Shown here piece by piece: positions 54,001 to 57,000 of a stretch of 64,000 nt of DNA (positions within the stretch are counted from its first letter, which is position 1; each line of letters starts with the position of its first letter). A program made the position numbers. The stretch comes from Phallusia mammillata (taxonomy: Eukaryota): positions 21,886,001 to 21,950,000 of the forward strand of contig OZ281500.1 in NCBI GenBank assembly GCA_965637545.1, in the 5' to 3' direction.

Positions 54001-57000
54001 AATATTGCAACTCAAGTACTTCTTGTTTATTGGTAATTCAAGATGATACAACTTTGCAGCATGTTGTTCACGTATCACATGGCATTTACACTTTTGCAAA
54101 AGTCATGCCAGAAAGACACCTATCTGTTGCCAAAACAACTAACTCCTAGTCTCAAATTGCTCACACATTTGCGGTAGACAACCAACGACACGAAATGACG
54201 TCACGCGGTGACGAAACAACGCTAAGTCCTTGTTCGAAATCGAGCGAGCGCTGCTTGTAGCAATTCCAAAAGTCAAGCCGTGGCAAATTCGAGACCCACA
54301 CAGAAAAATACAAGCAACCGCAGTACAAGACAGGCGAACAGTTGTCTTAAGTTTAACATGGCCTCTTTGGCTTTAGCGAAGACAAAAAGCCTTCAACAGC
54401 ACGCAATAACATGTCAATCAAAATAGCCGGACGGCCATTTACGTCATCGCTATAGTGGCCGCATTTCAGATGAGCCACTTGATTACTCTTGACAAGCGAG
54501 AGCAATTAAAACATGCAAGCTTATATAGAAGTTTCTTGGCCAAGGACTACAAGTGCTTGTCGCAGGTGTACGCGATTATCAGCTGTTTGCAGTGCACGTT
54601 TTTTACGTTTAAGTTGACTGCAACCTACAAGTGCTATATATTGGATGTTACACAACAATATGGCTGCAAATTGGGTCTACTGGTCCAAAATTATTCGCTT
54701 CAACGCAGAGCACATTTTTTGAATCAATCTTTGATAAAACAAACTTCTAAACCACTTCGCGTAACAGTTCAAACTTCAATTAACAAACGTTCAACATATA
54801 CCAAAAAAAAATATGTCAGTTATTTCAGTTTAAGACCGGCGTTTCACGTTATAAACACTGTCATGGCAGTATTACTCCATTTAACAGTAAATATAAAAAG
54901 GCTGACTCAAAAAGCAAATATTTTGAAAAACGTATTTCCGCGACCAGAACACGGCACTAGTCTCTACAGCAAATACAACGGATTTGTAGATACAACCTTA
55001 TTCAAATAGAAGTTGACAGAAGATGTTTTCAATGACCAATGACAAATGGCTCACAACTAGGCACAAAATACATATCATTGTCTGCATTCTATAGGTTCAC
55101 GCTAATATGGGTTAGTTTTTTAGGTAAAGGTCGCTATTCAAATAGAACAAAAGACGAGAGAAATATATCAGACACATATATTTGCTTGTATATCTACATG
55201 ACCAATCTTAAAACAACCAGCACAATAACAATTGACTACATTCAATACAACATTTCCTATTTAAACTTTAGTCAGCGGTGATACATTCTGCAGTTGTTTA
55301 TAAAGAACCAAACAGAAGAAAACAAAACATCGACTTCACAGGTTTAGCTGCTGATCTAACGAAAATAAGTTTACAAAACCACTTACATGCAAGCTGGACC
55401 GATGCATTTCTGCTGTAAGTGACCCCTTCCGAGTTGGTGGCTACACATTGGTAAACTCCTGTGTTTAAATCTGGTCCCTTGTTGCGAATTCGTTGAAACA
55501 TTAAATCCCCGGGAGCTAGCTTGATGACGTCACGAACTGAAATCAAACAGTGAAAATGTTGAAGTTTGGTTCGGTGATAAACTTAAATAAAGATCATCAC
55601 ACAAAAGTTGGCACAAATACAGCAAATATAAAAACCGATTTAATTATGTCAATATACATAACAATCTTGAAGAATATGGTAACAATGGGCCAGTCGACGT
55701 TGAAACCTCATGTTCTTCATGATATAATTCACCCAAATGACGTCGTCTGTTTCTTATTCAAATAGAATGATACAGTTCTTATGTTTGCAAAACCATTAAA
55801 CTGCTAAAAGATTTAAGCAACTGCTTGCAAAGAAAAACAGAACAAGGCCTATTTTTTTGGCTGCTTTGTTTAAATATATTAAATGTGGTTAAAATTTCCA
55901 GTTACAAACTAAACGATTTACTATCTTGTAACGCCTATTTTTCTGTACTGTTCAAAGTCGTAATTCATTTCTTAATAATTTTGGGGGCAAATATAAACGT
56001 TTACGACTCGGAACCGTAACTTACGTACATTAAATAATTTGTGATGTAGTGTTTAATTACGAAAATTACAGCCATTAGAACCAATACCACGGTATGAAAT
56101 TTATGACGGGAGAGCATAATAAACTTATAAGTCCGAGACGTTAGATCATAAATTATCGAAGTACGATTGTTGTCTGTTTGTTCAGATCTTGGTTTTATTC
56201 AATAAGTGGAAAATGGATTTACGCATATTGGAGGTTAAACTAACCAACACTTTGCAGTCTTATACGTAACACATAAATTAAAACTTATTTAACACTATAT
56301 TTTCGTAAAAAATCCGTAAAGTTTTCATAAATGTCATACATTTTGTTCGCAATTGCAAATTTTGAAATTGATTTTTACTTCGGTGAAATATATACAATTT
56401 TATAGTAAGAGGTTTTAATTTAAAACTGAAGGATAGTCATTTAATATTTTTTGGTTTAAATATTAATTTAGAAATCTTAGTTGGCTTTATCGTTGAATCA
56501 TAACTTGAAATACCAATCTTGTATGTTTTATATTTTCACTATTTCTTGTAAAATATGTTAACGTCTTTTATCTAACCTGATGTTGTTGCCAAAGGATTTC
56601 CATCTTTCATCCAAGTGAGCGTTGGAGGTGGATTGCCGGAAGCTCTACAATATAAACGACCGTTTTCACCGGGATCAGAAGCAAGAAAACTTGTTGGATG
56701 TTCCGTAATGATCGGTTTTGATGGACCCGGCTGCTGACGAGCCAGTGGGGCAGACGGAAGGGGGGCTGGGGTCTCAGACTCTGTTAGTGGGGCAGCAACT
56801 GTGGGTAAAAAGTGGGTGAAAGTTAGTTGCGGAATTTTTTTTGGATTGTATAGCTGTTGAAAAGTATATGTAACTATTTGAATAAGAAAACTGTTGACAT
56901 TATTTGGCCGAACTGGTCTTTAACCCTAAGTTACGTTGTAGTTACAATAACTCATACTTCATGTGGGAGATATGTTAACAAGTAAACCAAATATAACATT

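What the first reader, a model, noticed from the sequence alone, without database searches (positions are those of the whole stretch)
55387..56798. Robo Ig1 substituted at Slit-contact positions, paralleling Slit-insensitive mammalian Robo3
Seen: Ig1 reads ENGRLYCRASG and GDLMFQRI, where human Robo1 has EPATLNCKAEG and GSLFFLRI. By my hand alignment this is T86R, N88Y, K90R, F128M and L130Q, with F129 and R131 kept. Known: this Ig1 face binds Slit D2; the ATLNC strand is conserved from nematodes to vertebrates; and changes at N88, K90 and L130 were reported to abolish Slit binding in mammalian Robo3. Inference: this receptor may have independently lost or rewired Slit recognition (other ligand or co-evolved Slit). 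Caution: some Slit-binding invertebrate Robos vary at 90 and 130.
Basis: partly seen in the sequence, partly recalled or inferred. Interest (0 to 1): 0.65.

Follow-up and report, generated by a model that had tools for sequence, protein, structure and literature searches.

The report
Tunicate-type Robo with remodelled Ig1
These two exons encode the first immunoglobulin domain of a Robo axon-guidance receptor whose usual Slit-binding residues are changed, but the sea squirt Ciona shares most of the changes, so this looks like an old lineage trait and not proof of lost Slit binding.

Summary
Observation confirmed. The coordinates bound two minus-strand exons, 56798-56577 and 55536-55387, with AG/GT borders. 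They encode one Ig domain reading ENGRLYCRASG and GDLMFQRI.

The gene is a Robo. Thirteen open exons give five Ig domains, FN3-1 and half of FN3-2. The Ig2 exon's best 7 PDB hits are all Roundabout.

The closest relative found is Ciona intestinalis "roundabout homolog 2-like". It is collinear with all 13 exons. Ciona also has R86, Y88, R90, M128 and the same Ig1 indels. The change is therefore older than this species and is probably a tunicate trait.

Ig1 has lost the extra conservation it shows in other animals: 39-43% identity to fish Robo1, against 58-78% elsewhere. Yet it is the best-conserved domain between the window and Ciona, at 53%. That pattern fits a remodelled face that is still constrained.

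Whether Slit binding is lost, retuned or kept cannot be told here. No tunicate Slit could be fetched. The spliced Ig1 was neither folded nor docked.

The parts
56577..56798 (-). Exon Ig1a: pre-Ig1 linker plus the first half of Ig1 (strands A to C). Contains ENGRLYCRASG, that is R86, Y88 and R90.
   Evidence: Translation, splice sites, HMMER alignment to human Robo1/Robo2 Ig1, Pfam Ig_3/I-set profile positions 1-43.
55387..55536 (-). Exon Ig1b: second half of Ig1. Contains LAPGDLMFQRI (M128, F129, Q130, R131) and GVYQCVATN.
   Evidence: Best stretches on Robo2 75-119 and Robo1 60-104. MAFFT alignment. No Pfam match at E<=0.01.
16886..17040 (-). Exon Ig2a, with the LQCQPPRGFPDP motif.
   Evidence: The best 7 of 126 PDB hits are all Roundabout and match at Ig2. 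The donor at 16886 fits the Ciona length.
16434..16554 (-). Exon Ig2b.
   Evidence: Pfam I-set profile positions 55-90.
12132..12270 (-). Exon Ig3a.
11706..11833 (-). Exon Ig3b.
8117..8236 (-). Exon Ig4a.
6225..6395 (-). Exon Ig4b.
5612..5820 (-). Exon Ig5a. The donor ATG|gtaagt at 5612 was chosen over 5618 because it fits the Ciona length.
4244..4325 (-). Exon Ig5b (acceptor ag at 4327-4326).
3560..3725 (-). Exon FN3-1a.
   Evidence: Pfam fn3 profile positions 2-36. Splice sites.
1106..1272 (-). Exon FN3-1b.
   Evidence: Pfam fn3 profile positions 42-81..
449..689 (-). Exon FN3-2a, assigned by position. It matches only Ciona Robo well.
   Evidence: No Pfam hit and no PDB hit. Ciona gives 35 bits and 38% over 45 residues, collinear with the other exons.

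Best explanation
The two exons encode Ig1 of a Roundabout (Robo) receptor gene that runs on the minus strand from 56798 to beyond position 1. The animal is most likely a tunicate distant from Ciona (inferred).

The canonical Slit-contact signature of Ig1 is replaced by a lineage-specific one: R86-L-Y88-C-R90 on strand B and L127-M128-F129 on the facing strand. This signature arose before this species and Ciona separated and has been kept since.

I therefore read Ig1 as a working ligand-binding domain whose face was remodelled once and is again under constraint. The most likely partner is the lineage's own, co-diverged Slit LRR2 domain. In that reading the change is a retuning of the interface, not a loss of the ligand.

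Shown: the gene's identity, the residues, their sharing with Ciona, and the domain-wise conservation pattern. Inferred: the constraint, the partner, and the taxon.
For: Gene identity. Thirteen exons are open, all have AG/GT borders and their phases are consistent. Nine of 10 Ig exon peptides match Pfam Ig families, as first or second halves. Two FN3 halves match Pfam fn3. The Ig2a exon's best 7 of 126 PDB hits are human Robo1, human Robo2 and Drosophila Robo, and they match at Ig2 (36.1 bits against 12.6 or less for the other Robo1 domains).

Closest relative. Of the 150 proteins listed by the representative search, only P0134 matched all 13 exon peptides in collinear order, at 37-57% identity. 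P0134 is Ciona intestinalis roundabout homolog 2-like. Ciona is the best of 22 Robos for 7 of 13 exons. The largest margins are at the two Ig1 exons: 62 against 48 bits, and 64 against 42 bits.

Shared derived state. Ciona Ig1 reads VRLYCRATG and KLAPGELMF. It also shares the one-residue insertion before strand B, the two-residue insertion before KLAPG and the short C'-D loop. Eight of the window's 18 departures from the pan-Robo consensus are identical in Ciona, and so are Y88 and R90.

Conservation pattern. Ig1 identity to fish Robo1 is 78% for amphioxus, 58% for starfish, 59% for snail and 58% for fly, but 43% for Ciona and 39% for the window. Ig2 gives 62, 48, 46, 49, 43 and 47% in the same order. 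Between the window and Ciona, Ig1 is the most alike of the well-placed domains: 53% against 46% (Ig2), 41% (Ig4) and 41% (Ig5).

Fold marks are kept: C89, W101, the Y-x-C motif and the NAS sequon.
Against: No binding data and no tunicate Slit sequence were available, so co-evolution is untested.

The constraint argument rests on two sequences, plus one unnamed fragment. It uses identities over about 95 columns, and 53% against 46-48% is a small margin.

The window and Ciona differ at 130 (Q/L), 131 (R/N) and 132 (I/V), in the middle of the presumed contact strand.

Y88, M128 and Q130 occur in 0 of 20 other Robos, and F128 and L130 are among the best-kept Ig1 residues. A real drop in Slit affinity is therefore plausible.

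Ig1b has no Pfam match at E<=0.01. Ig1a alone scores higher on neurofascin Ig4 (35.5 bits) than on Robo Ig1 (25.8-28.0 bits).

The taxon is inferred from one relative. The Ciona+P0118 clade joins two long branches.
Confidence: 0.55

Rival explanations
1. Ligand switch. The tunicate-type Ig1 no longer binds Slit with useful affinity and the receptor works through another ligand or co-receptor. This would be a second natural case like mammalian Robo3.
For: Five positions on or next to the Slit2 D2 surface are changed. Y88, M128 and Q130 are seen in 0 of 20 other Robos. Ig1 has lost its usual excess conservation. Mammalian Robo3 shows that a few Ig1 changes can be enough. A changed face that is then conserved is also what a new partner would produce.
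Against: The verified Robo3 changes are prolines (N to P, L to P). Even those left weak Slit binding in fly Robo3. Here the residues are Y, M and Q, and F129 and R131 are kept. Ciona keeps L130. T86, N88, K90, F128, L130 and R131 each vary in some other Robo. The fly Robo1-type protein in the table reads Y at 130, and fly Robo1 binds Slit through Ig1. No second Ciona Robo appeared among the 120 listed hits (weak evidence, since only 8000 candidates were scored). If Robo is single-copy, losing Slit reception would remove the pathway.
Confidence: 0.2
2. Tolerated drift. Tunicate proteins evolve fast, and the Ig1 changes are neutral or nearly neutral replacements. They leave canonical Slit binding intact and need no compensating changes in Slit.
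For: The departures are spread over the whole domain, at 18 of 50 conserved columns, and are not confined to the contact strands. All domains are about equally far from other Robos, at 33-47%. K90R is common (5 of 20), and T86R, F128L and L130Y occur elsewhere. M for F is a hydrophobic replacement.
Against: Drift alone does not explain why Ig1 is the most alike domain between the window and Ciona. Nor does it explain why 8 of 18 departures, plus Y88 and R90, are identical in both.
Confidence: 0.2
3. Not a working Robo: another IgSF gene (contactin, neurofascin or DCC type) or a decaying copy.
For: Ig1a and Ig1b taken alone score as well or better on neurofascin and contactins. FN3-2a has no Pfam or PDB match. 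The transmembrane and cytoplasmic parts lie outside the window.
Against: The Ig2a exon is Robo-specific. All 13 exons are collinear with an annotated Robo. There are no stops or frame breaks, and all 13 exons have AG/GT borders.
Confidence: 0.03

Closest known systems
Ciona intestinalis roundabout homolog 2-like (XP_018673109.1; P0134)
   Same: Collinear with all 13 exons. Same Ig1 indels, R86, Y88, R90, M128, the KLAPG(D/E)LMF stretch and the pre-Ig1 PLPxxPLARxxxG linker.
   Different: Only 37-57% identical per exon. Ciona keeps L130 and has N131 and V132. Ciona has lost the CQPPRG motif of Ig2, which the window keeps, so Ciona ranks 21 of 22 for that exon.
Human Robo1 and Robo2 (PDB 5o5g, 2v9q, 2v9t, 6iaa), canonical Slit receptors
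   Same: Same order of Ig and FN3 domains. Each Ig1 and Ig2 exon matches the corresponding Robo domain best within those chains. F129, R131, L87, C89 and E72-H73-P74 are kept.
   Different: T86R, N88Y, K90R, F128M and L130Q, plus D76S, L77F, V79A, P84N and A85G. Ig1 identity to a fish Robo1 is only 39%.
Mammalian Robo3 (no high-affinity Slit binding; binds NELL2 through FN1)
   Same: A natural Robo with replacements at the positions of N88 and L130 in Ig1 (passages).
   Different: Robo3 has prolines at these sites, whereas the window has Y and Q. Robo3 is one of several paralogues beside Slit-binding Robo1 and Robo2. Whether this lineage has other Robos is unknown. NELL binding was not examined.

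Membership tests
Roundabout (Robo) receptor family | Ectodomain of five Ig domains followed by FN3 repeats | tested here: met
   Ten half-domain exons give five Ig domains. Nine of 10 have Pfam Ig matches, as first halves (profile positions about 1-45) or second halves (about 50-90). FN3-1 follows in two halves, and then an exon placed as FN3-2a by collinearity with Ciona Robo.
Roundabout (Robo) receptor family | Three FN3 repeats, one transmembrane helix and cytoplasmic CC0-CC3 motifs | not testable with these tools
   The gene runs off the window at position 1 after FN3-2a. The rest is not in the 64 kb.
Roundabout (Robo) receptor family | Domain-by-domain sequence relationship to known Robos | tested here: met
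   The Ig2a exon's best 7 of 126 PDB hits are all Roundabout, matching at Ig2. Ig1a and Ig1b match Ig1 best within the Robo1 and Robo2 chains. All 13 exons are collinear with Ciona Robo.
Roundabout (Robo) receptor family | Canonical Slit-contact signature in Ig1 (EPATLNCK and GSLFFLR) | tested here: not met
   The window reads ENGRLYCR and GDLMFQR. The residues found in most of the 20 other Robos at positions 86, 88, 90, 128 and 130 are all replaced. This is a conserved trait of most members, not the definition of the family: 8 of 20 other Robos also lack N88.
Roundabout (Robo) receptor family | Binds Slit LRR2 through Ig1 | not testable with these tools
The spliced Ig1 was not assembled, so no fold or complex was predicted.
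Slit-insensitive Robo of the mammalian Robo3 type | Proline replacements at the N88 and L130 positions of Ig1 | tested here: not met
   The window has Y88 and Q130, and Ciona has Y88 and L130. The N-to-P and L-to-P identities come (passages).
Slit-insensitive Robo of the mammalian Robo3 type | High-affinity NELL2 binding through FN3-1 | not tested
   The contact residues were described only in figures of PMC7083938. I saw passages only.

The most novel reading that the evidence does not exclude
In the tunicate stem lineage the Slit-binding face of the Robo receptor was rebuilt (R86, Y88, R90, M128, with new loop lengths) and then frozen. This would be a second, independent natural change of Robo ligand recognition after mammalian Robo3. 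The receptor would now read either a non-Slit ligand or a Slit whose LRR2 concave face was rebuilt in step with it.
Probability: 0.3. Interest if true: 0.7.

Novelty: new variant of a known kind. Interest (0 to 1): 0.4.

Why it matters
Robo Ig1 and Slit LRR2 are treated as an interface conserved from insects to vertebrates, and mammalian Robo3 is the one natural exception studied. If the sister group of vertebrates carries a differently built Ig1 face, it offers a natural experiment on which contacts are needed. Ciona is a tractable laboratory animal in which a retuned pair or a ligand switch could be tested. The finding also warns against reading single-species substitutions as independent losses. 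Here the comparison with one relative changed the inference.

Tried and rejected
- Word-index searches with single exons found nothing. Ig1a gave 167 candidates with none at E<=0.001, perhaps crowded out by its proline-rich linker (not tested). Ig2a gave 4 candidates and no hit.
- FN3-2a against the PDB gave 4 hits at E 0.37-1.7, none of them Robo.
- As I had feared, giant multi-Ig proteins headed the representative search with Ig2a. Hemicentins headed the search with Ciona Robo. Robos had to be picked out by collinearity.
- A scan for a signal-peptide exon on the minus strand of 56830-64000 found none. The first exon may lie outside the window.
- When the exon fragments were added to the ectodomain alignment, Ig3b, FN1a and FN2a were misplaced. 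I use only the Ig1, Ig2, Ig4 and Ig5 figures of that call; the FN1 value is set aside.
- Departures from consensus do not clearly cluster on the contact strands. By my count they are 7 of 14 conserved columns in 72-93 against 11 of 36 elsewhere.
- Morlot 2007, Zelina 2014, Fukuhara 2008 and Xu 2021 are not held. Their content is cited only through other papers or marked as recalled.
- Six searches touching on tunicate Robo or Slit, or on the contact residues, found no held paper on tunicate Robo Ig1 or on a tunicate Slit. I read passages of PMC2637281, PMC7014683, PMC7347617, PMC3820451, PMC8704543 and PMC6620384, which were not informative.
Supplementary tables of PMC7535936 may list tunicate Slit and Robo orthologues.
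- Rejected: a contactin, neurofascin or DCC identity, and a pseudogene.

Full report
**What is at the coordinates.**
The window has no N. It is AT-rich, 35-42% G+C outside one insert. I do not take it for human, because its nearest relative found is a sea squirt protein.

The finding spans two minus-strand exons and the 1040-base intron between them.
- Exon Ig1a is 56798-56577 (acceptor ag at 56800-56799, donor gt at 56576-56575). It encodes a proline-rich linker and then KPIITEHPTSFLASDPGENGRLYCRASGNPPPTLTWMKDGNPLATTS.
- Exon Ig1b is 55536-55387. It encodes RDVIKLAPGDLMFQRIRNKGPDLNTGVYQCVATNSEGVTYSRNASVQLA.

**The alignment behind the five substitutions.**
HMMER against PDB chains aligns Ig1a to human Robo1 Ig1 (25.8 bits, against 15.5, 14.3 and 11.4 for Ig2-4) and to Robo2 Ig1 (28.0 bits). 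It pairs gengrlycrasg with gepatlnckaeg. Ig1b falls on Robo2 residues 75-119 and Robo1 residues 60-104. Its residue-level alignment comes from MAFFT with 22 Robo Ig1 domains, to which the two exon peptides were added as separate rows.

The numbering was checked independently. A preprint on PDB 2V9T names Asp76, Leu77, Val79, Ala85, Leu127, Phe128 and Arg131 (passages), and my table has those letters at those numbers.

D76S, L77F, V79A, P84N and A85G are changed as well.

Ig1 alone is not diagnostic of Robo:
- Neurofascin Ig4 gives the best single stretch for Ig1a, at 35.5 bits.
- Contactin-4 heads the list for Ig1b.
- Ig1b has no Pfam match at E<=0.01.

**The gene.**
Downstream on the same strand I found eleven more exons:

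| Exon | Coordinates |
|---|---|
| Ig2a | 17040-16886 |
| Ig2b | 16554-16434 |
| Ig3a | 12270-12132 |
| Ig3b | 11833-11706 |
| Ig4a | 8236-8117 |
| Ig4b | 6395-6225 |
| Ig5a | 5820-5612 |
| Ig5b | 4325-4244 |
| FN3-1a | 3725-3560 |
| FN3-1b | 1272-1106 |
| FN3-2a | 689-449 |

All 13 exons have AG and GT borders, their phases chain correctly, and none has a stop. One search also corrected Ig5a and Ig5b.

Nine of 10 Ig exon peptides match Pfam Ig families, as first or second halves. The two FN3-1 halves match fn3.

The Ig2a exon carries LQCQPPRGFPDP. Its best 7 of 126 PDB hits are all Roundabout, and they match at Ig2 with 36.1 bits, against 12.6 or less for the other Robo1 domains.

FN3-2a has no Pfam or PDB match. 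The rest of the gene lies beyond position 1. No first exon was found upstream.

**Relatives.**
Single-exon word searches were empty. A full HMMER scan with Ig2a listed 150 proteins. Only P0134 matched all 13 exon peptides in order, at 37-57% identity. P0134 is Ciona intestinalis roundabout homolog 2-like.

Against 22 Robos, Ciona is the best hit for 7 of 13 exons. It ranks second for 2, third for 2, fifth for 1, and 21st for Ig2a, where Ciona has lost CQPPRG. The widest margins are at the two Ig1 exons.

I infer that the window comes from a tunicate far from Ciona. This rests on one named relative.

**The central result.**
Ciona Ig1 reads VRLYCRATG and KLAPGELMFLNV. It shares with the window the one-residue insertion before strand B, the two-residue insertion before KLAPG and the shortened C'-D loop. 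So R86, Y88, R90 and M128 are common to both. Q130 is the window's own, since Ciona has L. Ciona has N131 where the window keeps R.

An unnamed 361-residue Robo fragment, P0118, reads DLYCRAEG. It groups with Ciona at 100/97 support, although both sit on long branches.

Among the 20 other Robos:
- Y88, M128 and Q130 never occur.
- N88 is kept in only 12, K90 in 12 (R in 5), T86 in 17, F128 in 18, L130 in 19 and R131 in 13.

The 20 come from fishes, a bird Robo3, hagfish, amphioxus, a hemichordate, echinoderms, arthropods, a nematode and molluscs.

**Is the change special to the Slit face?**
The window departs from the pan-Robo consensus at 18 of 50 conserved Ig1 columns. The 20 other Robos depart at 1 to 14 of 50-56 columns. 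Ciona departs at 20 conserved columns, but its denominator was not printed and takes in a few columns past the window exons. Eight of the window's 18 departures are identical in Ciona.

The departures are spread over the domain, for example at 108, 121, 141, 163 and 164. They are not confined to 76-86 and 128-130.

By domain, identity to a fish Robo1 is:

| | Amphioxus | Starfish | Snail | Fly | Ciona | Window |
|---|---|---|---|---|---|---|
| Ig1 | 78% | 58% | 59% | 58% | 43% | 39% |
| Ig2 | 62% | 48% | 46% | 49% | 43% | 47% |

A review states that Ig1 is normally the best-conserved Robo domain (passages). That excess is gone here. Yet between the window and Ciona, Ig1 is the most alike domain: 53%, against 46% (Ig2), 41% (Ig4) and 41% (Ig5). 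Three fragments (Ig3b, FN1a, FN2a) were misplaced in that alignment, so the Ig3, FN1 and FN2 figures are set aside.

The simplest reading is one burst of change in the common ancestor, followed by renewed constraint.

**What the literature I could read says.**
- Robo1 residues 86-96 and 128-131 overlap the Slit2 D2 surface (PMC5807052, passages).
- Mammalian Robo3 lacks high-affinity Slit binding because of a few Ig1 substitutions (PMC12308364 and PMC5325304, passages).
- Two of these substitutions are N-to-P and L-to-P. Put into fly Robo3 (N43P, L82P), they left weak Slit binding (bioRxiv 10.1101/2023.05.08.539901, passages).
- Fly Robo1 binds Slit through Ig1. The Robo1-type protein of another Drosophila species in my table reads Y at position 130.

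Morlot 2007, Zelina 2014 and Fukuhara 2008 were not held. My memory that Ciona has a Slit gene is likewise recalled and untested.

**Verdict.**
The Slit-facing residues are replaced at Robo3-like positions, but by different chemistry, as part of a domain-wide remodelling, and in a state shared with Ciona. It is a lineage trait.

I favour a retuned but working Ig1 that still reads the lineage's own Slit (0.55). The alternatives are a true ligand switch (0.2) and tolerated drift (0.2).

No joined search, fold, tree placement or complex prediction of the window's Ig1 was made, and every search and alignment used single exons. 

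Noticed in passing
window 26109-33666 (+ strand), inside the 38-kb intron between exons Ig1b and Ig2a: An apparently intact BEL/Pao LTR retrotransposon lies antisense to the Robo gene. Its LTRs, 26109-26835 and 32940-33666, are 727 bp long and 100% identical. GTTGT flanks both sides. A single open reading frame, 27032-32848 (1939 aa), carries Pao peptidase, RT and integrase domains. G+C is 45-49% against 36-40% around it. 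The identical LTRs suggest a recent insertion.
   Followed up: partly
window 56717-56796 (minus strand), start of exon Ig1a: The linker before Ig1 (PAPLPSAPLARQQPG) resembles the Ciona Robo linker (PQPLPQPLARRSSG). The other Robos printed show no such stretch before Ig1.
   Followed up: no
window 16886-17040 (minus strand), exon Ig2a: The window keeps the Robo Ig2 motif CQPPRG, whereas Ciona Robo reads CEGPSG there. The two tunicate-type Robos have therefore diverged in different domains, and Ciona ranks 21 of 22 for this exon.
   Followed up: partly
window 449-689 (minus strand), exon FN3-2a: This exon matches no Pfam family and no PDB chain, including the human Robo2 ectodomain. It is recognisable only through Ciona Robo (38% over 45 residues), so FN3-2 evolves very fast here.
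   Followed up: partly
window 56830-64000: No exon with a start codon, a hydrophobic signal sequence and a phase-1 donor was found upstream of Ig1a. The first exon of the gene probably lies outside the window.
   Followed up: partly
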